This document shows, piece by piece, positions 9,650 through 21,614 of a DNA stretch of 64,000 nt. The stretch is from an uncultured Candidatus Poseidoniales archaeon. Lineage in GTDB: Archaea > Thermoplasmatota > Poseidoniia > Poseidoniales > Poseidoniaceae. The position numbers and the translations under genes are program-made. The notes below the pieces were generated by a model, which saw only the letters and a list, made by a program, of their open reading frames with translations, did not search any database and had not been told where the DNA came from. The DNA lies in contig CAJIYT010000006.1 of NCBI GenBank assembly GCA_905181715.1, positions 6,315 to 70,314 of the forward strand, in the 5' to 3' direction. The first letter of the stretch is position 1, and each line of letters opens with the position of its first letter.

Positions 9650-12600
9650 ATGCGAGGCATCTACGCGGTCCTACTTACAATATTGATTTTGACATCTACA
9701 ATTCTACCACTGGTAGATGCGGCAGATACCGTCACTGCTGGCGATGACGTAATGTCGGGCATAGAAGTGCTTGACGGCAATTATACCGTTAGCGCTGGTG
9801 ATACGTTGACTATCGCTGCCGGAACAACTCTTGATGCTAAGGATTATTGGATATTAGTCGAAGGCTCACTGGTCGCTACAGATGCTACATTTTTCTCATC
9901 GACTCCAGGTTCAGGTCAGAACGGCACTTCTGCCGGGGTTTGGAATGGAATAATAATCGCACCTGATGGAGATGCCGTGCTAGACGGAGTTACAATTTCT
10001 GATGCTCGAACTTGTATTTCTGTCGCTGGCCGCTTGGATGCTACTACCCTTACACTTTCGCATTGCTTGATTGGTATGGAAATTTCCGGTACTGCGAATC
10101 TTACAGGACTTAACGGAATCGACCTTCAGTCGGAAGGAATAAGGAACACTGGAACTCTAAATATTACAGATTCAAATATTTCTAATACCGGTATGGCAAT
10201 TTCCTCGTCAGGCAATCTCGATGTTGATAATCTTGATATTGTAGATTCTGGAGCAGGGGTATATGTCACTGCAGGTAGTGCAACAATCGACAATCTCGAA
10301 GTGGTAAACCTCTCGATGGGATTACACGTCGAAGATGGAGTAAGCGGTTATATGACTGGTATGACCGGAGAAAGAAACGTATTGGCAATAGATGCTGGAG
10401 ATAGTTCTAACTTCCCTTTCCAAGATATTTCTTTGGGAGCAGAACGACTCCTTCAAGCATGGAACCCAGGGGATATATCAGTTTCTAACGCACATATCAA
10501 CGGTTCTTTCAATAGCGAAAGAGCAGCAATCGATATCGTTTCAGACGCGAAAGTTTCCTTTACAGATTTCACTCTAGCCAATGTCAGCCATGGGATTGAC
10601 ATTACCGGGACAGGAGAGTATAATTTCAATAATTCGTTAATCACATCATCCGGTCTTGGAATTCAAGCATCTGGTAGCCTATCCCTCGGTATCGACACCA
10701 TGGTCGCCGAAGTCGATCAGACAGGAATGATTCTTAGCGAAATAGACAGCGTATTAACCGACGTAACAATCAATATCAGTTCAGTGGGAGACAATGGCAT
10801 CGAACTCTTGTTTGGCAATCATAATATCAACAATCTGGAAATAAATAAACCATATAATTCTCAAGAACACGATTCTATTGGTATGCATGCATGGTTGACA
10901 AATTCGCTAACAGTTTCCGATCAAATGAATATCAGCGGGTTTGCCACAGGGTTAAGATTAGAAGACGGTAAAATGACTATTGATGATCTTAATGCAGGAC
11001 TCTCAGAGGACCTCTCTCTCGATATAATCAACAGCGAATTAATTATTACAGGACTCCTTTCAACCAGTGCGGCCGCAATGGCGATTATCCTTAGCGAAGA
11101 ATCTACGATCACAGTAACGAATTGGGCTTCTCAATACCATGCAGATGGAATTACTATCGGCGGATCAAGTACTGCTTCGATTAGGGCATGGACAGTATTC
11201 AATACCGCTGGCACTGATGCAAGTGGAACAGGAGTTCTATATCATCCCGTCATCGATTCCCCAGATATCGCCGAAAGTCTAGACTCGGCGGTTCTCAGTG
11301 AGACAGCAATAACAATCACGGATTTATCAGATGTAGGTATACCTGCTGTGGTTGAAGTTCACGGCTTCATTGGCACAGCTGCTGGCGATGGCACAATCAC
11401 CATCCCACTAACTGCAGGTGGAAGTACGGTTGTTGCAACCCATCAAAATGTAGGGGCAAGTGATTCTCTGAGTAGCGGGATTAGCGCCCAAGTCCTAAGA
11501 GTGCCAATAATACCAGATGGAGACTGGACTATTTCAGCAGGACAATCTGTTGTATTGAGTGCCCCTGCTGACGACTCATCACACATTGCTGATGGCAATA
11601 TCACCATCGAAGGTGGTGGAAGCCTCTTTTTGCAAGGTTCAACCCTTGAAATGCCCAGCGGCACTACTTTGACTGTAATCGGAAGCGGAATATTTGGTGG
11701 TGCTGATGCAACTCTTGCGGGAGGAAATGTTTCAGTTGCAGAAACCTATGCTATCGCTAATACCGGTTCGTTGACCATCAAAGAAAACCTTAGTTGGAGT
11801 TGTAATGGCTTGGCAGAGGCCTCAGGAATAACCGTTGAGGGTAACCTTGAGATTAACGGAGGCACGGGCTGTATGGTGAAGATCACTGACGGCGAAGTCC
11901 AAGGAACGGTTACGGTATATTCTGATAGTGAATTACAGATACACACTTCTCTGCAAGTAACAGTTCTCGACAAAGGAGAGCCAGTTGAGGGAGCAACCGT
12001 CAATGTCAATGGTAATCTCGCTAGTACCGATTCTACAGGTATTGTAGTTTATTCAACAGCTTCGAGAACCGTTGATTCTACGGGAGAGCAATGGGCTGGC
12101 CGTCTGGATGTATCCATCAACAGCAACAACCTTCCTGAGATGTTTACTTGGGACACCAATTACTCGATGAATTACCAATTCATGGCTTCTACTATTGCGC
12201 CAGGTTCCATTACTGAATGGATGGTACTCGAAAGAGTGTGGAGCCCATATCATTTACAGGGTGATTTAACGATTCCAAGCGGTGAAACTCTTACGGTTAG
12301 AGACGGTGTTCATCTTAGGGTAGGCGATGGTGATTCGATTATTGTCGAGGGTACTGCTGACATCGGTTCTGCGGTAATAACCTCGGTAGGAAACTCGGCC
12401 CGTTGGGGTGGATTTGAGACCGGTTTCGATGCAGACTCCGCATTATATCTCACAGGCACTCAAATCGCTGAAGCAGCACCAGGAATCACGATGAATGGCT
12501 TAAGCAAAATCGAACTACAATCAGTATTGATATCTCGGTCAGGATCTTCAGACCCATTGATTCGCACTACTGCGGCATCAAGCGGAACTTTCGACATTAC

Positions 12601-14266
12601 TGATAGTGAGCTGAACCAAGGCGGTAGCGGCTGTATCGAATCCCAAGGAGCGATAATTTTAACGATGAATAGCGTAGAATTGAAATCCTGTTCAGGCCCA
12701 GCTCTTTGGGCACAGGGAATAGAGGCAGACTTCATGGATTTGGTAATTGGTAGTGGCTCTTCAATTGGTCTAGATTTGACTGCAGTCATGGGAACGATTG
12801 CAGGAGTTGAAACATCTTTGCACGATGGTAATAGCGAGGCAATAAAGGTAAACCTTGCAGAGGACTTACACCTGTCGGGCCTTAATCTCTCAGCACCTCA
12901 AGATACTGCATTGAAAGTTGTCAATAGTAAAAATCTGGTTGTAAATGGTTTGAATATACTTACCGCACCAGGAATAAAAATAGATTCTACTACCGGTGAA
13001 TTCGCCGGTATGTCGATCGATTGTGGCGGTACTGGAACAGCGGTATCTGTTACATCTCTTCGTACATCTGGCGCCATTTCCTTTGCCGGATCAGGGATTA
13101 GTTCCTGTGATACAGGAATCGAAGTAACATCGGTATCCGAATATAATTCAGCAGTGACATTTAGCGATTTAGAAATCGTCGCTACAATTACATTATCTGT
13201 CGACGGAGTAGATATCTACAGCAAAGACGGGTCCTTTACCGGCGAAATACAATGCGCAAACGCTACAGTCGATTTAATCGACGCGGAGACGACAACCACA
13301 ACGGTTTCTTCGGGTGAGATTAGGCTTTGGAATAGTTATATTGTGCAAGCAACCCTGTATGGAGATGTTGTTAGTGCAAGCTTTTCAGTCGATAATGGCG
13401 ACGGAGGGTGGTCAACAGAATTTAGTGGCAGTAGTACAGAAGTACTCATCCCGTATGCAGTAATATCTAGTTCCGGAGAAAACACATCTGATTCAGCGTC
13501 ATTCACAGTAATGGCTGACGGAGCATCTCCAATGACGCAAAACATAGCGGTTGGCCCAACCGTAGACAATCTAATCACAATAATTCTGACTGGCAATTCA
13601 GCACCATCAGTTACCATCCTTAGTCCATCTAGTGATTCTAAATTGATGGAAGGCGGATACTTCATGGCGTCAGCAGAAGTAAGTGACGATGTCTCTCAGA
13701 CTGAGAATATGATAATCACTTGGCAACTTAGCGATGACACGGGAGTATTGATCGAGGAGAAAACCGGCTTGACTGCCAACTTCACCAACCTTCAACCTGG
13801 TACTTTCTTACTAACACTATCTGCAGAAGACCAGCAAGGCATGGCTAATACAACCAGTGTTGCCATTGTCGTAACTTTACTCGATAGCGATGGAGACTGG
13901 ATCGATACTTGCAGCGATGCAACTTGGTTTGATTCACTGGTAAGTATCCATTGCGGACCAGACGTATATGATGAGGACGACGATAACGATGGCTATTATG
14001 ATGAACAAGATCAATGGCCTAGAGACCCATGTGCGGCCCTAGATACCGATAGAGACGGTCAGCCGAATAGCATTGATTGTCCAGAGGGTTATTCTACACT
14101 TCTCGTCGAAGACCAAGATGATGACAACGATGGAACCCCCGATATATTAGAGGGAGCAATATCCGGGCAAGATGATAGTTCTACTCCGGTAACACTGATT
14201 CTTGGAATTGGATTGATTATCATATTGGCAGGAATCATATTTTCACGAATGCGAAAAGAGGAATGA
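9650..14266 (+). CDS. Large secreted, C-terminally anchored surface protein with parallel beta-helix-like repeats, a PKD/Ig-like domain and TSP3-like repeats
   Basis: N-terminal signal peptide; long I/G/S/T/N-rich beta-helix-like blocks; NSAPSVTILSP...F.LTL.AED.QG Ig domain; DDDNDG/DTDRDG repeats; TM plus RMRKEE tail. Confidence 0.8.
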   Translation: MRGIYAVLLTILILTSTILPLVDAADTVTAGDDVMSGIEVLDGNYTVSAGDTLTIAAGTTLDAKDYWILVEGSLVATDATFFSSTPGSGQNGTSAGVWNGIIIAPDGDAVLDGVTISDARTCISVAGRLDATTLTLSHCLIGMEISGTANLTGLNGIDLQSEGIRNTGTLNITDSNISNTGMAISSSGNLDVDNLDIVDSGAGVYVTAGSATIDNLEVVNLSMGLHVEDGVSGYMTGMTGERNVLAIDAGDSSNFPFQDISLGAERLLQAWNPGDISVSNAHINGSFNSERAAIDIVSDAKVSFTDFTLANVSHGIDITGTGEYNFNNSLITSSGLGIQASGSLSLGIDTMVAEVDQTGMILSEIDSVLTDVTINISSVGDNGIELLFGNHNINNLEINKPYNSQEHDSIGMHAWLTNSLTVSDQMNISGFATGLRLEDGKMTIDDLNAGLSEDLSLDIINSELIITGLLSTSAAAMAIILSEESTITVTNWASQYHADGITIGGSSTASIRAWTVFNTAGTDASGTGVLYHPVIDSPDIAESLDSAVLSETAITITDLSDVGIPAVVEVHGFIGTAAGDGTITIPLTAGGSTVVATHQNVGASDSLSSGISAQVLRVPIIPDGDWTISAGQSVVLSAPADDSSHIADGNITIEGGGSLFLQGSTLEMPSGTTLTVIGSGIFGGADATLAGGNVSVAETYAIANTGSLTIKENLSWSCNGLAEASGITVEGNLEINGGTGCMVKITDGEVQGTVTVYSDSELQIHTSLQVTVLDKGEPVEGATVNVNGNLASTDSTGIVVYSTASRTVDSTGEQWAGRLDVSINSNNLPEMFTWDTNYSMNYQFMASTIAPGSITEWMVLERVWSPYHLQGDLTIPSGETLTVRDGVHLRVGDGDSIIVEGTADIGSAVITSVGNSARWGGFETGFDADSALYLTGTQIAEAAPGITMNGLSKIELQSVLISRSGSSDPLIRTTAASSGTFDITDSELNQGGSGCIESQGAIILTMNSVELKSCSGPALWAQGIEADFMDLVIGSGSSIGLDLTAVMGTIAGVETSLHDGNSEAIKVNLAEDLHLSGLNLSAPQDTALKVVNSKNLVVNGLNILTAPGIKIDSTTGEFAGMSIDCGGTGTAVSVTSLRTSGAISFAGSGISSCDTGIEVTSVSEYNSAVTFSDLEIVATITLSVDGVDIYSKDGSFTGEIQCANATVDLIDAETTTTTVSSGEIRLWNSYIVQATLYGDVVSASFSVDNGDGGWSTEFSGSSTEVLIPYAVISSSGENTSDSASFTVMADGASPMTQNIAVGPTVDNLITIILTGNSAPSVTILSPSSDSKLMEGGYFMASAEVSDDVSQTENMIITWQLSDDTGVLIEEKTGLTANFTNLQPGTFLLTLSAEDQQGMANTTSVAIVVTLLDSDGDWIDTCSDATWFDSLVSIHCGPDVYDEDDDNDGYYDEQDQWPRDPCAALDTDRDGQPNSIDCPEGYSTLLVEDQDDDNDGTPDILEGAISGQDDSSTPVTLILGIGLIIILAGIIFSRMRKEE

Positions 14267-15299: not shown

Positions 15300-17324
15300 A
15301 TGGCCGGAGCGGAGCGAATCCAACATCTGGCCGAGGCGGTCAGATATCATCGTGAATTGTATTACAATCACGCCGCTCCAGAGATAAGTGATGCAGAATT
15401 CGACACTCTTTGGGACGAATTAGAGCAATTAGATCCTGATAACGATGTTTTACATCAAGTAGGACCTGAACCATTACCAGGGACTGTGAAAGTAGAACAT
15501 ATCTTCCCAATGCGGTCTTTAGATAAAGGAACTTCAGATGAAGATATAGTTCATTTCGTCACTCAGTCTACCTCTGGTGGGGAACGATATTTGGCCCAAC
15601 CAAAATTGGACGGTTCAGCATTATCACTCGAGTATATCGCCGGTAATCTTCACAGGGCTGCTACCAGAGGTAGTGGGGAGAAAGGAGAAGATGTGACCTT
15701 GAATGCCAAGTTAGTTGCAAATATTCCTATGCGTCTAAACCACCCAGTCGATTGTCATGTACGAGGAGAGGTGGTTATGCCCCTAGCGGTTTTCGAAGAG
15801 AAATATAGAGATATTTCACCGAATCCTCGGAATTTATGTTCAGGCGCATTACGCCAAAAACATGGGGATGGAAAGGCTGATGCTTCAGATTTGGTATTTT
15901 GTGCTTATGATGTAAAATTCGTTAACAACCCGCCTACTGCAAGATATGATAGTGAATTATTGAGTTGGTTGCAGAAGGTAGGCATCGAGCCCGCACCATG
16001 GCAAATCTTTGATTCTGAAACACCGAATAAAGAAATGATTGAATATACCAAAGAATGGAGTATGAGAAGATCTTCATACGAATTCGAAATCGATGGAATC
16101 GTATTCAAATTAGATGATCTTGCGCAGCGTGAAAATTTAGGGATGACCGCTCATCACCCGCGCTGGGCATTGGCATGGAAATTCCCTTCTCAGGAAGCCC
16201 ACTCTGTTCTTTTGGATGTTGATTGGCAAACGGGAAGGACTGGGGCGGTAACTCCAGTCGCTAGAATCGCCCCTCAAATGGTAGGCGGCGTAACCGTTGA
16301 AAACGTTACACTGCATAATGTAGGGGAGGTTGAACGATTAGGAGTTAGAATCGGAGACAAAGTTACAATCACTCGTAGAGGAGACGTGATTCCGAAAATA
16401 ATTGAGAACCTCGGGCCAGCCTCAGATGCAGATTTACAAGATAGATTCCATGCCGACGGAAGCGCTTTTATCGGTAAATTGGTTATTGGGGAAATAAAAA
16501 TCCCAGCCGATTGTCCAGCCTGTAACAGGACGCTAAGCATGGAGGGTGCATTTCTTCGATGTATCGACCTAGAATGTGATGCTCGAACAACTCGGGCATT
16601 GACGTATTGGTGTCGTACGTTGGAGATGGATGGAATAGGGGGTAAGTTGATTGAAGCCTTGCTAGAAAATGGACTAGTGATAACAATCGCCGACTTATAT
16701 CGCCTCAGTCATACACAAATAGCGACTCTCGAAAGGATGGGGGAAAAATCAGCAACCAATGTAATCGAAGAGATACATTCTTCGCGTGAAATGGGATTAT
16801 CACAATTCCTTCACGCACTCGGCATGCCACGCATCGGACCAGAAGTAGCAACTGCAATAGCACAACATTTCGTTTCTCTTGAAGCGCTTCTTATGTGGGC
16901 GAACAAGGGAGAGTCAGATTCGCTTACCGTCATAGATGGAATTGGCGATAAAGTAGCTGAGATTTTCCTTCAGGGGATACTCGACCGTCTTTCTTTGATC
17001 ACCGACCTCACCTCACACTTACTTATTTCATCTGAGAAAGCAGCCAGTATCGGGGTCTTTAGTGGGAAGAATTTCTGCATCACCGGTTCGCTTACTCAAC
17101 CACGCAAGCAAATCCAGGAACGAATAAAGAAGGCAGGAGGAAAGATTGTTAGTAGCGTGGGAGCTAATCTCGACATCCTCATTGCCGGAGAAAAAGCTGG
17201 CAGTAAATTGGCTAAGGCTGAATCTTTAGGGGTCGAAGTATGGAGCGAGGAAAAACTGGATTTGAAACTCAACGGGGAGGATCAAACTATTCCAGCCTCT
17301 GCCAAGACAATCTTCGATTACTGA
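15300..17324 (+). CDS. ligA: NAD+-dependent DNA ligase (bacterial LigA type)
   Basis: YY...PEISDAEFD, KLDG adenylation motif, TRGSG..GEDVT, EVRG-like VRGEV, NPRN, DGIVFK, PRWALAWKF, GRTG..TP, Zn finger CPAC..C....C, HhH repeats, C-terminal BRCT (FCITGSL...GSKLAKA). Confidence 0.97.
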   Translation: MAGAERIQHLAEAVRYHRELYYNHAAPEISDAEFDTLWDELEQLDPDNDVLHQVGPEPLPGTVKVEHIFPMRSLDKGTSDEDIVHFVTQSTSGGERYLAQPKLDGSALSLEYIAGNLHRAATRGSGEKGEDVTLNAKLVANIPMRLNHPVDCHVRGEVVMPLAVFEEKYRDISPNPRNLCSGALRQKHGDGKADASDLVFCAYDVKFVNNPPTARYDSELLSWLQKVGIEPAPWQIFDSETPNKEMIEYTKEWSMRRSSYEFEIDGIVFKLDDLAQRENLGMTAHHPRWALAWKFPSQEAHSVLLDVDWQTGRTGAVTPVARIAPQMVGGVTVENVTLHNVGEVERLGVRIGDKVTITRRGDVIPKIIENLGPASDADLQDRFHADGSAFIGKLVIGEIKIPADCPACNRTLSMEGAFLRCIDLECDARTTRALTYWCRTLEMDGIGGKLIEALLENGLVITIADLYRLSHTQIATLERMGEKSATNVIEEIHSSREMGLSQFLHALGMPRIGPEVATAIAQHFVSLEALLMWANKGESDSLTVIDGIGDKVAEIFLQGILDRLSLITDLTSHLLISSEKAASIGVFSGKNFCITGSLTQPRKQIQERIKKAGGKIVSSVGANLDILIAGEKAGSKLAKAESLGVEVWSEEKLDLKLNGEDQTIPASAKTIFDY

Positions 17325-17359: not shown

Positions 17360-17433
17360 GGACCCATAGTGTAGCCTGGATATCACCCCGGCCTCCGGAG
17401 CCGGAGACCCGTGTTCGAATCGCGGTGGGTCCG
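17360..17433 (+). tRNA. tRNA-Arg(CCG)
   Basis: Acceptor GGACCCA/TGGGTCC, anticodon arm CCGGC-CT CCG GA-GCCGG, T arm CCGTG-TTCGAAT-CGCGG. Confidence 0.95.
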
Positions 17434-17498
17434 CCTTTGAAACTAATTGCGATGTAAATAATGGGTATGGTTATACTTTCAATCATTAAGCAACAGTC

Positions 17499-19973
17499 AT
17501 GCGACGCATCATGGTTATCATAGTGGCGTGTACTTTTCTATTGAGTTTGAGCACACCACTAAACCAAGCAAAGGAAACCGGTATGCCAGGAAGTACAGGT
17601 TGTTCTTGTCATGGCACTGCTGGATCGGTAACATTTGCTCTTGTAGGACATCCGAATGAATACACCGCTGGGGCAACGTATAGTTTGTCTTTGGAATTAA
17701 CAGGGAGCCAGACAGGAACTGTTGGTGGCTTTTCTTTCATTGTTTCAAAAGGAACTTTCAGTAACGGAGGACCGGGGATATTACTTGCTGGCAATGAGGC
17801 CTCACATACTAATAGCGATAACAGAGCTTGGACATTTGACTGGGTTGCGCCTGGCACAGGTTCGGGCTTGATAACCTTCGATGCTTATGGCGTAACTGCG
17901 GATAATTCATCGACCAGTACTGGCGATAATTGGAATTCAGAGACTTGGCTTTCCTTGGAATCCCCTGCTGTTTCCAATGAGCCCCCAGTAGCTAACAATG
18001 TTATTTTATCGCCAACCAATGCTAAATCAACAGACGATTTGACAGTCACCTATACCTATTCTGATCCCGAGAACGACCCCGAATCTGGAACGATTATCGA
18101 GTGGTACAAAGATGGTATGAAACAAGTTTCACAATCAGGAAACGTCGTTTCAAAAACATTAACCGGGAAGGGCGAGATTTGGTCTGCCCAAGTCATTCCT
18201 AACGATGGAAACGAGGCAGGGGAATCAAGCGAATCGAATTCACTTACAATACTCAACGGCGCACCTTCGATAACTATTGCTTCAATCAGCCCAGATAAAC
18301 CGACAGCAGATCAGGCTCTGTCGTTATTACATACCGCAGAAGATCCAGATGGGGACTCGACAACAATAACCGGCATACGTTGGTTTGTTGACGGTTCAAA
18401 GGTTGACACACTGGACGATGAAAGCCAGGTTCCAGTAATCGCTACCCGTGCGGGTGATATTTGGCACGCCCAGTTGCTGATTAGTGATGGCGAATTAAAC
18501 AGTGATTGGTTCACTACGGATTCCATTGTCATCAATGGTACCAATACCGCACCAGTGGTTGATTCTGTAACAATAAGTCCAACCTCTCCAACAACGACAG
18601 ATGATTTAGACGCCGATTGGGCTTTTTCCGATGCGGAATCCGACTCTATTACAAACTGGCAACTCCGTTGGAAAATCGACGATGTAATCTCTCAAAATCA
18701 TGATGGTAAAGAGATAATTTCTTCCGAACAAACCAGTAAAGGACAGTCATGGAAAGTGGGTATAAAGGTATTTGATGGTACAGATTGGTCACAAGAGGTT
18801 TGGTCAAGTGCCGTGGTAATAGGCAATACTCCACCCGTGCTAAATACACTTTCATTAAAGCCAGATATAGCTCAAATCAGCGATTCAATAGACTATGATT
18901 ACACTTTTACCGATGTAGATAACGATGCGATAATACAAACTGAAGAGACATGGTATGTCGATAATACCGTAGTGGATAACATCGCCTCTTTACCCGCCGA
19001 TTTCAAATTAAGTGATATAATTAAATTAGAATTACGAATCAATGATGGTAGCGCTTGGTCAACAACAGTTTCAGCCCAAATAACTCTACAAAACACACTA
19101 CCTCTGGTCAATATTAGTAGTACAGTAGTCGAACCGGATTCATTGAGCAATTTGAACATCTCAATCGAGACAAGTGATGCGGATGGCCATAGTGTTACGA
19201 CGACAATAGTTTGGACAAAAAATGGCTATCTTGTGGCGGGATTAAACGATTCGCTTAGTGTACCTGCGGCGCTCTTGGCTCCTGGAGCAATATGGATTGC
19301 AACCGCAACTCCGGATGATGGCATAGGGCAAGGTGTAGCTGCAAGCAGGAGTTTCACAATAGGAAACATTCCGCCCATGGCGGCGATTAGCATAGAGGAA
19401 GGGAGCAAGTACGTCGGTCTCTCAATTTCATTGTCTACGACTAATTCTAGCGATCCCGATGGCATTATTGTTGACGCTAGTTGGCTGATTGAAGGGCAGA
19501 TGTATTCGGGTATTGAAATCAATTTCATTCCGACCCTGACTAGCAATCAAGTAACTCTCACGGTATATGATGATCAAGGAGCCTCACATAATGTAAGCAT
19601 CACAGTCGATGCAGTAATTCCACCAATGCCTTCTGAGGTATTAGTAGTGCAAGAGGGTAGCGGAATTCGCTTGACTTGGCAAGGAACAGCAGGACAATAT
19701 CAGATATTGAGAGATGGACAGCAAATCGCTCTTGTCGATGAAAAGACATACTTCGACGAACCTACACTTGGAGGTGAACATTCTTACCAGATCAATTCGA
19801 TAATCGATGGTTCAGTCATTGATTCAGGGCCTATCCAAAGCGCAAACATCGACATCTCAGCAATTTCCTTCGAGGAATCTAGCGATGATCTAGCCTCGCT
19901 GATTATGGCCATAGCGATGATGATTATTGGCGGGCTTGGTATCGCAGTATCTTTTGTCAATCGAGGTGATTAA
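17499..19973 (+). CDS. Secreted anchored protein: CSCH motif, Reeler/choice-of-anchor-V-like domain, five Ig-like repeats, PKD, FN3-like domain, C-terminal TM
   Basis: Signal peptide; GCSCHG; Y.AGATY...GGF...G.F...SHT...WTFDWVAP..G...F.A.G...GD; repeated N.xP.V..V.ISP...D.D.D.....W..DG units of ~95 aa; C-terminal TM. Confidence 0.8.
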   Translation: MRRIMVIIVACTFLLSLSTPLNQAKETGMPGSTGCSCHGTAGSVTFALVGHPNEYTAGATYSLSLELTGSQTGTVGGFSFIVSKGTFSNGGPGILLAGNEASHTNSDNRAWTFDWVAPGTGSGLITFDAYGVTADNSSTSTGDNWNSETWLSLESPAVSNEPPVANNVILSPTNAKSTDDLTVTYTYSDPENDPESGTIIEWYKDGMKQVSQSGNVVSKTLTGKGEIWSAQVIPNDGNEAGESSESNSLTILNGAPSITIASISPDKPTADQALSLLHTAEDPDGDSTTITGIRWFVDGSKVDTLDDESQVPVIATRAGDIWHAQLLISDGELNSDWFTTDSIVINGTNTAPVVDSVTISPTSPTTTDDLDADWAFSDAESDSITNWQLRWKIDDVISQNHDGKEIISSEQTSKGQSWKVGIKVFDGTDWSQEVWSSAVVIGNTPPVLNTLSLKPDIAQISDSIDYDYTFTDVDNDAIIQTEETWYVDNTVVDNIASLPADFKLSDIIKLELRINDGSAWSTTVSAQITLQNTLPLVNISSTVVEPDSLSNLNISIETSDADGHSVTTTIVWTKNGYLVAGLNDSLSVPAALLAPGAIWIATATPDDGIGQGVAASRSFTIGNIPPMAAISIEEGSKYVGLSISLSTTNSSDPDGIIVDASWLIEGQMYSGIEINFIPTLTSNQVTLTVYDDQGASHNVSITVDAVIPPMPSEVLVVQEGSGIRLTWQGTAGQYQILRDGQQIALVDEKTYFDEPTLGGEHSYQINSIIDGSVIDSGPIQSANIDISAISFEESSDDLASLIMAIAMMIIGGLGIAVSFVNRGD

Positions 19974-19974
19974 A

Positions 19975-21099
19975 TTGAGGATAAGAGTTATTGCAATACT
20001 CGCGATTCTCATATTCTCAGCATCTTGGACTCCGATGACCTCAGCAAAGTCAGGCGGAGAAGGAGATGACATTCGTTCTATGCAATGCGGAGGATCATGT
20101 CATTCAGACCCGGCGCTTAATGCCACCAGTGCAGCAATGGTTTCTGTAGAGCAGCCGAGTTCGAAGTGGGCCGGCCTATTGACTACAGTCACTGTTAATA
20201 TCACCGATTTCCCAGAATCAGAGACACGAATAGTAGGCGTTTTCCTATTGACCAACGATCAAGGTGCCAAAGATACCCCTCAGCATGAGGGTTGGACAAT
20301 AGTTGCAGATCCAAACGGCGGAGTAGTGAATTATATCGAAACCAGAGTCTCTAACGGTGAAACCAGCGTCTCGGTAACTTGGACACTAAAAGCCCCAGTT
20401 GTTGCTGGGAACTATACTCTACTTGCTAGCATACACCACGGAGGAGTTGGAAATAGCGTTTCCATTCATGGTAATTCCTGGCCGATTTCTTTTACAATAG
20501 ATGAACCACCCGAAGACCTTCCACGACTAGCATCAACCTTTACTCCACCAAATACAAGATTAGTGAACCAAGAGACAATAATCACCCTTGAAACTGAAGA
20601 TGTTACTGATTATATTGTGGAGATGAGAGTTCCTGGCGCCCAATCGGTAACTCTTGACGTCGTCGAAGGTACTTTCACAATCCCCCCTGCAATCAATTCC
20701 GGTTCAATCGAATGGCGAGCAACACTTTCTGGAGTTGGGCCAGATCAACAGACCCCTTGGTTCACGTTGATAGCAAAGGAAGAAGGATGGCAATCAGATC
20801 GAGTAGAACTGTATTTGCAAGCTTTCTCTTTACTGTTTTTGATGACTGGTTTGGTTTTGGTAAGCAATAGGAAGCCTAGAGCGGAGAAAATTGATTTGGT
20901 TGGAGTTATGGGACTACCTCAGCCAGATATCACCGCACAGATAATTTCTGAACCACAGCAGCATTCAACCCCAGTTGTCGAACACAACCCCGTAATTTCC
21001 ACAATTCCTCCAGTGCCAATAGAAGGGCTACCGGCTGGTTGGACGATGGAGCAATGGCAACATTATGGCGAGCAATATCTTCAAGGAGGGTTGAGATGA
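19975..21099 (+). CDS. Secreted anchored protein: CGGSCH motif, Reeler-like domain, TM, cytoplasmic Pro-rich tail ending GLPAGWTMEQWQHYG
   Basis: TTG start preceded by SD GAGGTGAT and 1 nt after the upstream TAA; signal peptide; VTWTLKAP..AG.Y.L.A Reeler-like strand; TM LYLQAFSLLFLMTGLVLV. Confidence 0.78.
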   Translation: MRIRVIAILAILIFSASWTPMTSAKSGGEGDDIRSMQCGGSCHSDPALNATSAAMVSVEQPSSKWAGLLTTVTVNITDFPESETRIVGVFLLTNDQGAKDTPQHEGWTIVADPNGGVVNYIETRVSNGETSVSVTWTLKAPVVAGNYTLLASIHHGGVGNSVSIHGNSWPISFTIDEPPEDLPRLASTFTPPNTRLVNQETIITLETEDVTDYIVEMRVPGAQSVTLDVVEGTFTIPPAINSGSIEWRATLSGVGPDQQTPWFTLIAKEEGWQSDRVELYLQAFSLLFLMTGLVLVSNRKPRAEKIDLVGVMGLPQPDITAQIISEPQQHSTPVVEHNPVISTIPPVPIEGLPAGWTMEQWQHYGEQYLQGGLR

Positions 21100-21614
21100 T
21101 ATCAGCAGGCACCTTCCATGTGATCACTACCGAATTAGTAGTAGGAATGTTTGCATTAGCCGGTATCGCTTATCTGCTATTAGTTTTAGATAAAAAGCGA
21201 GAAACCGCAGATATAGTTGCACACTGGGCAATGTTAGGGGGATTGCTTGCTCTTCCTCTAACAATCATTTTTGGGATATATGCAAACCCAACAGAGCAGA
21301 TTAGTAATCAATTATTGGCTAATAAGGTTCTATTGTCTTTTTCAGCACTTGGTATTTCAGTGGGTGTTTTGCTTAATCGTTGGCTCAATAAGGGTCCAAT
21401 CTCCGGCAGGTTACACCCTTCGATTGGAATGGTTGCATGCGGGATGATACTATTGGTTGCTTCTTTAGGAGGAATGTACACCCGCGGAGAATCATTATTG
21501 TTCTTCTTACCCAAGGATATCGTGCTGATATTCCCTGTATGGGCTAGCACGATTCTATTGTTGATGGGCCTGATGCTTATTTCAAAATCAGCCGTAGATC
21601 ATCGACGAGGCTGA
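21096..21614 (+). CDS. DUF2231-like multi-pass membrane protein
   Basis: ATGA overlap with the upstream stop. FHVITTELVVG / AHWAMLGGLLALPLTIIFG / LVASLGGMYTRG align with the DUF2231 helix pattern, but two typical His are replaced. Confidence 0.6.
   Translation: MISAGTFHVITTELVVGMFALAGIAYLLLVLDKKRETADIVAHWAMLGGLLALPLTIIFGIYANPTEQISNQLLANKVLLSFSALGISVGVLLNRWLNKGPISGRLHPSIGMVACGMILLVASLGGMYTRGESLLFFLPKDIVLIFPVWASTILLLMGLMLISKSAVDHRRG

What the first reader, a model, noticed from the sequence alone, without database searches (positions are those of the whole stretch)
17499..21614. Coupled trio: two Reeler-like surface proteins with atypical Cys..CH motifs plus a DUF2231-like membrane protein (candidate extracellular redox or metal-capture module)
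Seen: three tightly coupled genes (1-nt gap, then ATGA overlap). Both secreted proteins start their mature region with a C..CH motif (GCSCHG; QCGGSCHS) directly before a Reeler/choice-of-anchor-V-like sandwich. One is raised on five Ig repeats plus PKD and FN3-like domains; the other is short and membrane-proximal. Knowledge: c-type heme attachment uses CxxCH, and CX3CH variants are known. Eukaryotic ferric-chelate reductases (FRRS1/SDR2) combine Reeler, heme-binding DOMON and cytochrome b561 domains. Inference: a distal-to-proximal-to-membrane relay for heme, metal or electrons. Caveats: CxCH is non-canonical, and the membrane protein lacks two usual DUF2231 His.
Basis: partly seen in the sequence, partly recalled or inferred. 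Interest (0 to 1): 0.62.

Follow-up and report, generated by a model that had tools for sequence, protein, structure and literature searches.

The report
Reeler-fold haem-type surface protein operon
Three tightly coupled genes of an abundant ocean archaeon (Marine Group II) encode two surface proteins, whose Reeler-like tip very probably carries a covalently bound haem on an unusual Cys-x(1 or 3)-Cys-His site, and a small membrane partner; together they look like an outward electron-transfer branch of a respiratory chain in which this domain has replaced classical cytochromes c.

Summary
There are three co-directional genes: g1 (17499-19973), g2 (19975-21099, TTG start) and g3 (21096-21614). 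They are separated by a 1-nt gap and an ATGA overlap. GCSCHG and CGGSCH lie about 10 residues behind the signal peptides.

g1's tip is a bona fide choice-of-anchor V domain (NF041895, 81 bits) with a Reeler fold (AF2 and Foldseek: F-spondin reeler domain, E 2e-6). g2 is a divergent relative. g3 belongs to a small family of its own (195 representatives) that only brushes DUF2231, below cut-off.

The trio is conserved as a unit in about 100 of 121 Poseidoniales genomes, in at least three different flanking contexts.

Evidence for a c-type haem and electron-transfer role:
- The 'CH' dyad is invariant, while the first Cys sits at n = 1, 2, 3, 4 or is absent. This includes canonical CxxCH in one g1 orthologue and in bacterial family members.
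- A distal His is at least 90% conserved.
- Paralogues are fused to CoxI and sit in the Rieske/cytochrome b operon.
- The genome has a full archaeal Ccm system but no classical cytochrome c.
- In distant Thermoplasmatota the g3-g2 pair is kept, but g1 is replaced by a 9-haem cytochrome or an EB_dh dihaem protein, next to Ccm, NrfD/FeS and multihaem genes.

Haem binding itself is untested. The relay idea is plausible but not shown.

The parts
17499..19973 (+). g1: 824-aa membrane-anchored surface protein. It consists of a signal peptide, a Reeler/choice-of-anchor V tip domain, a stalk of 5 Ig-like repeats plus PKD-like and FN3-like domains, and a C-terminal TM.
   Evidence: ORF. NF041895 at E 1e-22. 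Internal repeats. Orthologues sit upstream of g2 in more than 20 loci.
17565..17945 (+). g1 choice-of-anchor V / Reeler-fold domain (residues 23-149)
   Evidence: NF041895 scores 80.9 bits against a cut-off of 42. AF2 pLDDT is 84.9. The Foldseek top hits are the F-spondin reeler domain 2ZOT/3COO/2ZOU, E 2e-6, TM 0.5-0.6.
17598..17615 (+). g1 motif G-C35-S-C37-H38-G (CxCH), the proposed haem c attachment site
   Evidence: C37 and H38 are invariant and C35 is at least 90% conserved in 49 family members. Orthologues show CxCH, CxxCH (G027) or CGG[AG]YCH.
17805..17807 (+). g1 His103, the conserved distal His and candidate sixth haem ligand
   Evidence: At least 90% conserved in alignment A5, bacterial members included.
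17973..19361 (+). g1 stalk: five ~95-aa Ig-like repeats (residues 159-621)
   Evidence: phmmer of repeat 1 against g1 finds 5 copies.
19383..19868 (+). g1 PKD-like (629-712) and FN3-like (713-790) domains
   Evidence: Only weak hits support these: PDB PKD 6aem at E 0.035, and Pfam BiPBP_C at 0.0016 and RGI_lyase at 0.0096.
19896..19958 (+). g1 C-terminal transmembrane anchor
   Evidence: Read from the sequence (LIMAIAMMIIGGLGIAVSFV).
19975..21099 (+). g2: 374-aa short membrane-anchored paralogue. It consists of a signal peptide, a CGGSCH helix, a Reeler-like sandwich, a second Ig-like domain, a TM and a conserved cytoplasmic tail.
   Evidence: 117 homologues. AF2 pLDDT 83.8. A profile of choice_anch_V hits g2 family members at E 1e-8 to 1e-11, partly through the signal peptide. 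hhalign without the signal peptide gives E 2e-4.
20086..20103 (+). g2 motif C-G-G-S-C-H (CxxxCH)
   Evidence: The second Cys and the His are invariant, and the first Cys is at least 90% conserved, in 89 sequences. AF2 puts the motif in a short helix.
20119..20778 (+). g2 two beta-sandwich ectodomains
   Evidence: AF2 secondary structure. Foldseek matches are generic tandem Ig/FN3.
20800..20865 (+). g2 transmembrane helix
   Evidence: AF2 helix 275-296.
21007..21096 (+). g2 cytoplasmic tail motif PPVPIEGLPAGWTMEQWQHYGEQYLQ
   Evidence: Shared with at least 7 giant surface proteins of the same genome and with many Poseidoniales loci.
21096..21614 (+). g3: 172-aa membrane protein with 5 predicted TM segments. 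By the positive-inside rule its N-terminus is outside, placing the invariant His8 (21117-21119) and Lys77 (21324-21326) at the outer face.
   Evidence: Alignment A6 has H8, G17, G60, K77 and G125 invariant. Only 195 relatives are found among 1.84 billion representatives. DUF2231 scores stay below cut-off. g3 is always adjacent to g2, even in distant Thermoplasmatota.

Best explanation
The trio is an outward-facing electron-transfer module of Marine Group II archaea (Poseidoniales).

g1 and g2 are Sec-exported, C-terminally anchored proteins. The N-terminal Reeler-fold (choice-of-anchor V) domain of each is proposed to be a monohaem c-type cytochrome. Haem would be fixed by the archaeal Ccm system to a contracted or expanded site (C-x-CH in g1, C-xxx-CH in g2), with the motif His as proximal ligand. 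In g1 a conserved distal His would be the sixth ligand.

g1 holds its haem domain on a stalk of about 7 Ig-type domains (an inferred 25 nm), whereas g2 sits close to the membrane.

g3 is a 5-TM protein that always accompanies g2. It is proposed to be g2's membrane partner. It could act as a docking subunit, or as a cofactor-less quinol site formed by the outward His8/Glu13/Lys77 that feeds g2's haem.

Electrons would then pass between the membrane (or the Reeler-type subunits of the Rieske/cyt b complex and of CoxI) and an external donor or acceptor via g2 and g1.

Shown here: anatomy, fold, conservation, synteny and genomic associations. Inferred: haem binding, direction of electron flow, the role of g3 and the external partner.
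For: 1. Motif behaviour typical of haem c sites.
- The 'CH' dyad is invariant while the upstream Cys varies in spacing.
- g1 orthologues carry CxCH, CGG[AG]YCH, and canonical GCGSCH in G027. The G027 segment is also the only place in 31 genomes that rings with Pfam Cytochrome_CBB3 (E 0.0066).
- g2 carries CxxxCH. The distant relative P0114 carries GCGCH.
- Bacterial bona fide choice_anch_V proteins (77-131 bits) carry CxxCH (P0174, P0178, P0179), Cx4CH (P0176, P0177), or only xCH (P0175).
- The distal His is at least 90% conserved.

2. Respiratory context of paralogues in the same genome.
- One copy is fused to COX1 (PF00115, 1e-146), next to CuA-COX2, COX3 and SCO1.
- One copy heads the Rieske/cytochrome b operon.

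3. Haem maturation machinery is present without classical substrates.
- Present: CcmA/B, CcmC, CcmF, a Trx-CcdA fusion, and CcmE with the archaeal C-x3-Y end.
- My scan of all ORFs found no credible CxxCH cytochrome.
- In 31 Poseidoniales genomes: choice_anch_V 31/31, CcmE 27/31, PF00034 1/31 (0/19 high-quality), PF13442 0/31 over cut-off.
- Across 151 Thermoplasmatota genomes, choice_anch_V and CcmE co-occur: 41 have both, 10 and 9 have one only, 91 have neither. The odds ratio is 41, not corrected for phylogeny.

4. Slot replacement in distant relatives.
- In L013/L014 the order is a 9-haem cytochrome c, a g2 homologue, a g3 homologue, then CcmA, CcmB, CcmC, CcmE and a thioredoxin.
- In L097 the order is CcmF, an EB_dh protein with two CxxCH, a g3 homologue (E 5e-22), a g2 homologue, an NrfD+4Fe4S fusion, and an MtrC-like multihaem cytochrome.

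5. The trio travels as a unit in at least 3 flanking contexts.

6. The Reeler fold is confirmed. The same fold template (3COO) was proposed for predicted CxxCH monohaem cytochromes of Ignicoccus (PMC4429474).
Against: - No experiment or spectrum shows haem in any member of this family.
- CxCH is not an established natural haem c site, and from memory E. coli Ccm has been shown to work for n = 2-6, not n = 1.
- The motif region has only moderate model confidence (pLDDT about 65-79). I had no model coordinates, so a Cys-Cys disulfide or the absence of a haem pocket cannot be excluded.
- The conserved distal His of g1 appears to be replaced by an invariant Glu (E121) in g2.
- A single haem on a cofactor-free 25-nm stalk cannot conduct electrons; it would have to swing or collide.
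- g3 has one invariant His only, so it cannot carry electrons across the membrane by itself.
- The co-occurrence with Ccm outside MGII is expected for any respiration-linked protein.
- The own genome is only 85% complete.
Confidence: 0.55

Rival explanations
1. The domain is a redox or metal-handling module with a metal centre other than haem. Candidates are Cu (a halocyanin- or PCuAC-like role) or Fe held by Cys, His38 and His103. The trio would then carry electrons, or deliver or capture metal, at the cell surface.
For: - Two Cys and two His are conserved on a beta-sandwich.
- One paralogue is fused to CoxI next to SCO1 and CuA-COX2, where a copper chaperone would also make sense.
- From general knowledge, related archaea use blue-copper proteins in place of cytochrome c1. 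An earlier scan note also says this, and I did not check it.
Against: - The spacing of the first Cys varies (n = 1, 2, 3, 4) and it can be absent, while the adjacent Cys-His dyad is invariant. That fits a thioether plus axial His, not a fixed metal cage.
- Bacterial members carry canonical CxxCH.
- Ccm genes would be left without any substrate in MGII.
- In distant relatives the g1 slot is taken by haem proteins, not cupredoxins.
Confidence: 0.13
2. The trio is a haem (or iron) acquisition relay analogous to the Gram-positive Isd/NEAT system. A distal receptor on a stalk (g1) would capture free haem non-covalently and pass it to the short g2 and then to the membrane protein g3 for uptake.
For: - The long / short / membrane architecture resembles IsdH/B, IsdA/C and a membrane importer.
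- Cys/His sites can bind haem non-covalently.
- The surface ocean is iron-poor (general knowledge).
Against: - g3 is a 172-aa 5-TM protein with no transporter signature, and no ABC or TonB-type genes flank the trio in any of at least 3 contexts.
- The same domain is built into CoxI and the Rieske/cyt b operon, which are electron-transfer settings.
- Partners in distant relatives are multihaem cytochromes and NrfD/FeS proteins, not uptake genes.
Confidence: 0.1
3. The trio has an ordinary adhesion or surface-architecture function. The Reeler-like tips would bind a ligand such as a polysaccharide or another cell. The two Cys would form a structural disulfide, and the His would be structurally conserved.
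For: - Animal Reeler domains (F-spondin) bind heparin and carry no cofactor (the templates found).
- g1 has a classic adhesin-like stalk.
- NCBIfam treats the domain only as a surface-anchored module.
- The g2 tail motif is shared with many giant surface proteins.
Against: - A disulfide does not explain the invariant His next to the second Cys, the tolerance of n = 1-4 spacing, or the loss of the first Cys.
- It does not explain the fusion to CoxI or the position in the Rieske/cyt b operon.
- It does not explain replacement by cytochromes next to Ccm genes in relatives.
Confidence: 0.1
4. g1 and g2 are cytochromes as in the best explanation, but g3 is not an electron or quinol partner. It would be a dedicated maturation or assembly factor for the atypical CxxxCH site of g2, comparable to NrfEFG or the special CcsA lyases.
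For: - g3 is always adjacent to g2 and often translationally coupled with it.
- In L013 the g2-g3 pair lies directly upstream of the Ccm operon.
- From memory, atypical haem sites (CxxCK, Cx15CH) are known to need dedicated lyases.
Against: - The CxCH paralogues in the CoxI and Rieske operons, and g1 itself, have no g3-like neighbour.
- g3 shows no similarity to CcmC/CcmF/CcsA haem-handling proteins.
- It has only one invariant His.
Confidence: 0.12

Closest known systems
Predicted Reeler-fold monohaem cytochromes c of Ignicoccus hospitalis (Igni_0579/Igni_1052, 'cluster 38' of Kletzin et al. 2015, PMC4429474)
   Same: Both have an N-terminal haem-type motif directly before a beta-sandwich that models on the F-spondin reelin-N domain (3COO). 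Both have a conserved distal His, sit in an archaeal host with the Ccm variant, and are membrane-anchored (compared).
   Different: The Ignicoccus proteins have canonical CxxCH, while g1 has CxCH and g2 has CxxxCH. They are not known to form a trio with a stalked copy and a 5-TM partner. Neither case has been verified experimentally.
NCBIfam NF041895 choice-of-anchor V domain proteins (and NF041894 MXAN_6652 family)
   Same: g1 is a member, at 80.9 bits against a cut-off of 42. Bacterial members share the N-terminal C-x(n)-CH site and the distal His.
   Different: The family is described only as a surface domain with alternative anchors, and no cofactor or redox role is attached to it. g2 does not reach the model. 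The MGII copies use a C-terminal TM instead of PEP-CTERM, MXYO-CTERM or T9SS tails.
Cytochrome f of the b6f complex, and CbsA of the Sulfolobus SoxLN-CbsAB complex (from general knowledge)
   Same: These are beta-sandwich cytochromes, outward-facing on a single C-terminal TM, that take the place of cytochrome c1. In cytochrome f the haem motif also lies close to the mature N-terminus.
   Different: The folds are unrelated to Reeler. Cytochrome f has CxxCH with the N-terminal amine as ligand. CbsA binds haem b. Neither forms a stalked/short pair.
Extracellular electron-transfer gene clusters with multihaem cytochromes (Mtr/Omc type; NrfCD-type quinol modules)
   Same: In distant Thermoplasmatota the g3-g2 pair is embedded in just such clusters, with NrfD+4Fe4S, an MtrC-like MHC with PKD domains, and Ccm genes. 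Surface display on Ig/PKD domains is also shared.
   Different: The MGII trio has only one putative haem per protein, so there is no haem wire. It has no NrfD/FeS neighbour. Its host is an aerobic photoheterotroph.
Eukaryotic ferric-chelate reductase FRRS1/SDR2 (Reeler + DOMON + cytochrome b561)
   Same: A Reeler-fold domain is combined with membrane redox machinery on the outer face.
   Different: No DOMON or b561 domain was found in the trio. g3 has a single invariant His rather than the four of b561. No haem site is known in the eukaryotic Reeler domain.
Pfam PF09990 DUF2231 membrane proteins
   Same: g3 and two orthologues align over nearly the whole profile (positions 2-130 of 139), and g3 has an N-terminal His at the start of TM1.
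   Different: Scores of 18.7-23.4 bits stay below the 26.4-bit cut-off. Only 1 of 19 family members rings in hmmscan. A profile search finds just 195 relatives, not the large DUF2231 family.

Membership tests
NF041895 choice-of-anchor V domain | g1: HMM score over the curated cut-off (42 bits) | tested here: met
   80.9 bits, E 1e-22, residues 23-149. The genomic search gives 86.2 bits.
NF041895 choice-of-anchor V domain | g2: HMM score over the curated cut-off | tested here: not met
   No NCBIfam hit for g2, P0113 or P0114 at E<=0.1. Only remote similarity is seen: BLASTP E 0.018, hhalign E 2e-4 with probability 45%, and my family profile against g2 relatives at E 1e-8 to 1e-11, partly through the signal peptide.
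Reeler domain (Pfam PF02014 / F-spondin reelin-N fold) | Pfam HMM match | tested here: not met
   No PF02014 hit for g1 or g2 at E<=1. Several homologues carry a precomputed PF02014 hit.
Reeler domain (Pfam PF02014 / F-spondin reelin-N fold) | Reeler-type beta-sandwich fold | tested here: met
   The AF2 model of g1 residues 1-170 (pLDDT 84.9) has as best PDB matches 2ZOT, 3COO and 2ZOU, E 2e-6 to 6e-5, TM 0.5-0.6.
c-type cytochrome | CxxCH haem-binding motif | tested here: not met
   g1 has CSCH and g2 has CGGSCH. Canonical CxxCH occurs at the same site in the G027 g1 orthologue and in bacterial family members.
c-type cytochrome | Export of the apoprotein by Sec, and a haem-attachment system present in the genome | tested here: met
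   Both proteins have Sec-type signal peptides. CcmA/B, CcmC, CcmE (CxxxY), CcmF and Trx-CcdA are present.
c-type cytochrome | Covalently bound haem | not testable with these tools
   This needs a haem stain, pyridine haemochrome or mass spectrometry of the expressed domain.
Pfam PF09990 DUF2231 | g3: HMM score over the gathering cut-off (26.4 bits) | tested here: not met
   18.7 bits for g3. 1 of 19 family members rings. The best orthologues reach 23.4 and 23.0 bits, and 0 of 31 genomes are over cut-off.
Pfam PF09990 DUF2231 | Conserved His pattern of DUF2231 | not tested
   I had no DUF2231 seed alignment. g3 has one invariant His (H8), and H43 is conserved only within MGII.
FRRS1/SDR2-type ferric reductase | DOMON and cytochrome b561 domains | tested here: not met
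   No such Pfam hits in g1, g2 or g3.
Isd/NEAT haem relay | NEAT domains and a membrane ABC importer | tested here: not met
   No NEAT hit, and no transporter genes flank the trio in L010, L011 or L099.

The most novel reading that the evidence does not exclude
The Reeler / choice-of-anchor V fold would be a widespread, unrecognised class of beta-sandwich c-type cytochromes in Bacteria and Archaea. Its haem site would tolerate C-x(1-4)-CH, including a natural CxCH that the archaeal Ccm system can mature.

In Marine Group II this class would have replaced every classical cytochrome c. It would serve as the c1-like subunit of the Rieske/cyt b complex and as the electron-entry domain fused to CoxI. 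In this trio, a stalked cytochrome and a short one, together with g3, would form a minimal cofactor-less quinol (or docking) module that carries respiratory electrons up to about 25 nm away from the cell.
Probability: 0.3. Interest if true: 0.85.

Novelty: new variant of a known kind. Interest (0 to 1): 0.7.

Why it matters
Marine Group II archaea are among the most abundant microbes of the surface ocean and remain uncultured. How electrons pass between their complex III and their oxidase, and why they keep a full cytochrome c maturation system without any recognisable cytochrome c, is unexplained.

If the Reeler-type domain is their cytochrome, three things follow.
- Their respiratory chain becomes readable.
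- A new fold class and a new attachment motif (CxCH) are added to c-type cytochromes.
- Thousands of bacterial 'choice-of-anchor V' surface proteins gain a testable function.

It would also give a lead for the unexplained Reeler domain of eukaryotic ferric reductases.

The trio studied here would then be an outward branch of that chain. It could concern extracellular iron or organic-matter redox chemistry in the ocean.

Tried and rejected
- Word-index homology search with the g1 tip alone found nothing. It worked only with a 12-sequence alignment.
A smaller alignment worked.
- Foldseek of the whole two-domain g2 model gave only generic tandem Ig/FN3 matches, which is uninformative.
- The apparent in-frame TGA codons and the '1212-aa open frames' of g2 orthologues are simply the g1 stop codon abutting the g2 ATG in the same frame. 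There is no recoding and no fusion.
- DUF2231 membership of g3 stays sub-threshold throughout. Long g3 relatives have no informative fused domain.
- The weak Cyt_bd_oxida_I hit of g3 (E 0.015) was not pursued because it is insignificant.
- A literature search for 'CXCH' plus haem returned only the Rieske CxCH box and a pipeline regex. A search for 'DUF2231' found one unrelated database paper. No paper on MGII cytochromes c was found.
- Allen et al. 2009 (Ccm substrate spacing) is not held, so that point rests on memory.
- A lipobox reading of the Cys was rejected: the motif lies about 10 residues beyond the hydrophobic core, in a polar context.

Full report
**Anatomy.** The window lies in a 1.76-Mb Poseidoniales (Marine Group II) assembly that is 85% complete.

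Three co-directional ORFs follow a tRNA-Arg at 17360-17435:
- g1, 17499-19973, 824 aa.
- g2, 374 aa, starting at TTG 19975, one base after the g1 stop.
- g3, 21096-21614, 172 aa. Its ATG overlaps the g2 stop as ATGA.

The TTG start of g2 is the right one. In orthologues an ATG at the same aligned place directly abuts the g1 stop.

g1 is built as follows:
- A Sec-type signal peptide, then G-C35-S-C37-H38-G.
- A domain that scores 80.9 bits (cut-off 42) with NCBIfam NF041895, choice-of-anchor V.
- Five internal ~95-residue repeats.
- Weak PKD-like and FN3-like segments.
- A C-terminal TM.

g2 is built as follows:
- A signal peptide, then the conserved stretch NPGGxGD...C-G-G-S-C-H, which AF2 puts in a short helix.
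- Two beta-sandwiches and a TM helix.
- A cytoplasmic tail (AF2 pLDDT 83.8).

g3 has five hydrophobic segments. By the positive-inside rule its N-terminus is outside.

**Fold and family.** An AF2 model of the g1 tip (pLDDT 84.9) finds the F-spondin reeler domain (2ZOT, 3COO, 2ZOU) as best PDB matches, with E 2e-6 and TM 0.5-0.6. Several homologues carry precomputed Pfam Reeler hits.

g2 has no family hit but is a distant relative of g1:
- Pairwise BLASTP aligns the motif and the first strands (E 0.018).
- hhalign without the signal peptides gives E 2e-4.
- My choice_anch_V profile hits g2-family members at 1e-8 to 1e-11, partly helped by the signal peptide.
- One g2 relative (P0114) carries GCGCH, the g1-type spacing.

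g3 only brushes DUF2231:
- It scores 18.7 bits, and two orthologues score about 23 bits, against a cut-off of 26.4.
- Only 1 of 19 members rings in hmmscan, and 0 of 31 genomes are over cut-off.
- A profile search of 1.84 billion representatives returns only 195 relatives, none with a Pfam assignment.
- Invariant residues are H8, G17, G60, K77 and G125.

**Conservation and linkage.** g2 has 117 homologues, all from marine Euryarchaeota/Thermoplasmata. The second Cys and the His of its motif are invariant, and the first Cys is at least 90% conserved.

In every fetched locus with enough flank, an ~810-930-aa g1-type gene precedes g2 and a ~170-200-aa g3-type gene follows it. The surrounding genes differ in at least three ways:
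- LigA and PAC2, as in the window.
- A 3-hydroxyacyl-CoA dehydrogenase and glycosyltransferases.
- RNase PH and an AP endonuclease.

So the trio moves as a unit. A full-length g2 is found in about 101 of 121 Poseidoniales genomes and is missing from three whole genera. The module is therefore widespread but dispensable.

**Why haem c is the best reading.**

1. Motif behaviour.
- Across 49 choice_anch_V domains, the Cys-His dyad (C37, H38) is invariant.
- C35 and a distal His (H103) are at least 90% conserved.
- The spacing of the first Cys varies at one and the same site.
 - In g1 orthologues it is CxCH, CGG[AG]YCH, or canonical GCGSCH in genome G027.
 - In g2 it is CxxxCH.
 - Bacterial bona fide family members (77-131 bits, T9SS tails) have CxxCH, Cx4CH, CxCH, or a lone xCH.
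- An invariant Cys-His with a movable or dispensable first Cys is the signature of thioether-linked haem with an axial His. This rests on established knowledge: CxxCH, Cx3CH, Cx4CH, Cx15CH and A/FxxCH sites. It is not what a fixed metal cage or a structural disulfide would show.
- The G027 segment is also the only place in 31 genomes that rings, weakly, with Pfam Cytochrome_CBB3.

2. Paralogues. Before consulting earlier notes, I found that all six choice_anch_V copies of this genome carry G-C-x-C-H.
- One copy is fused to the N-terminus of COX1 (PF00115, 1e-146), beside CuA-COX2, COX3 and SCO1.
- Another copy heads the operon with a Rieske protein, cytochrome b and a cyt b C-part/4Fe4S/CCG fusion.
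- These are the places where cytochrome c domains or c1/f-type subunits normally sit.

3. Maturation machinery without classical substrates.
- The genome encodes CcmA/B, CcmC, CcmF, a thioredoxin-CcdA fusion, and a CcmE ending in C-P-S-K-Y, the archaeal variant.
- A scan of all ORFs found no credible CxxCH cytochrome. The CxxCH hits were Fe-S proteins, thioredoxin and Zn-ribbon proteins.
- In 31 Poseidoniales genomes, choice_anch_V is present in 31, CcmE in 27, and PF00034 in 1 (0 of 19 high-quality). PF13442 is over cut-off in none.
- Across 151 Thermoplasmatota genomes the two traits co-occur: 41 have both, 10 and 9 have only one, and 91 have neither. The odds ratio is 41. Outside Poseidoniales the counts are 17/6/9/91. 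This test is not corrected for phylogeny and is supportive only.

4. Slot replacement in distant relatives.
- In a non-MGII Thermoplasmata genome (L013/L014), the gene before the g2 homologue is a 9-haem, TM-anchored cytochrome c. The g3 homologue is followed directly by CcmA, CcmB, CcmC, a 48-aa gene, CcmE (CxxxY) and a thioredoxin.
- In another (L097), the order is CcmF, an EB_dh-domain protein with two CxxCH, a g3 homologue (E 5e-22), a g2 homologue, an NrfD+4Fe4S fusion and an MtrC-like multihaem cytochrome.
- The conserved core is thus g3+g2. The partner in the 'g1 slot' is always a haem protein.

5. Precedent. Kletzin et al. (PMC4429474) predicted two Ignicoccus membrane proteins with N-terminal CxxCH and a conserved distal His to be monohaem cytochromes c. 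They modelled them on the same reelin-N template (3COO).

**Mechanism proposed.**
- Shown: two outward-facing, TM-anchored Reeler-type domains with haem-type sites, one on a long stalk and one short, plus an obligatory 5-TM partner of g2.
- Inferred:
 - Ccm attaches haem to both sites.
 - g2 with g3 forms the membrane-proximal station. The outward His8, Glu13 and Lys77 of g3 would either dock g2 or form a cofactor-less quinol site of the kind seen in NrfD/NrfH-type enzymes (general knowledge).
 - g1, on an estimated ~25-nm flexible stalk, shuttles electrons by collision between g2 (or the Reeler subunits of complex III and CoxI) and an external partner.
- Neither the direction of flow nor the external partner can be told from sequence.

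**Caveats.**
- No member of the family has been shown to bind haem.
- n = 1 spacing is unprecedented. From memory, E. coli Ccm handles n = 2-6 (Allen et al. 2009, not held).
- The distal His of g1 seems to be replaced by an invariant Glu in g2.

**Rivals.** The rivals are a non-haem metal centre, a haem-uptake relay, plain adhesion, and g3 as a maturation factor. All remain possible but fit the motif variation, the respiratory paralogues and the neighbourhoods less well.

**Earlier scan notes**. These describe the same domain in other MGII genomes, including the CoxI fusion, the Rieske operon and the same trio, and they agree with my independent results. One note pointed me to the Ignicoccus precedent, which I then read myself. 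The notes are not independent evidence.

**Verdict.** The trio is a new variant of a known kind, namely a c-type cytochrome / extracytoplasmic electron-transfer module on an unusual fold and motif, with a clear and cheap decisive experiment.

Noticed in passing
window 21007-21096 (g2 tail); own genome C16:21378-24782, C21:14115-17573, C9:36272-41683, C9:65720-70543, C39:25238-27736, C4:161749-164205, C35:8010-11408: A cytoplasmic tail motif, PPxPxxGLPxGWTMEQWxxYGxxYL, lies behind the TM anchor of g2. It is shared by at least 7 giant (800-1800 aa) surface proteins of this genome and by hundreds of Poseidoniales loci. It looks like an undescribed sorting or docking signal. g1 lacks it.
   Followed up: partly
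own genome C39:13941-16247(-) and C8:14906-15784(-): One choice_anch_V CxCH domain is fused to the N-terminus of cytochrome oxidase subunit I. A free anchored copy heads the Rieske/cytochrome b operon.
   Followed up: yes
own genome C8:9908-12709(-): A 934-aa protein combines a cytochrome b C-terminal-like membrane part with two 4Fe-4S motifs and a CCG (HdrD/GlpC-type) domain. It lies directly downstream of cytochrome b.
   Followed up: no
own genome C15:34318-34716(+) and C15:43831-44895(-); the same pairing in G003, G005, G008, G012, G014, G017, G020-G024, G027, G029: CcmE (archaeal CxxxY type) lies 8-16 kb from the ~340-355-aa choice_anch_V paralogue. That paralogue sits next to a TatC-like gene and pntAB. 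This loose linkage recurs in at least 12 genomes.
   Followed up: partly
L110 (G027:C24:1500-8200): The g1 orthologue of one Poseidoniales genus carries canonical GCGSCH (CxxCH) where others have CxCH or Cx4CH.
   Followed up: yes
L013 4397-6004 and L097 2678-4216: In non-MGII Thermoplasmatota the gene in the g1 position is either a 9-haem TM-anchored cytochrome c with a CarboxypepD_reg domain, or an EB_dh-domain protein with two CxxCH. The neighbours are Ccm genes, an NrfD+4Fe4S fusion, an MtrC-like multihaem cytochrome and two TatC genes.
   Followed up: partly
window 15300-17324: A bacterial-type NAD-dependent DNA ligase (LigA: adenylation, OB, HhH and BRCT domains) lies just upstream in this archaeon. 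It is conserved there in relatives.
   Followed up: no
window 9650-14266: This is a 1538-aa secreted protein rich in beta-helix-like repeats. It has an acidic DxDxDG-type region and a C-terminal TM, and is one of many giant surface proteins in the window.
   Followed up: no
L096 (G002:C53:3742-4029) and L064: The only classical cytochrome c (PF00034) hit in 31 Poseidoniales genomes sits on one small contig of G002. A 'Verrucomicrobiales' MAG contig carries the MGII tail motif. Both may be binning errors.
   Followed up: no
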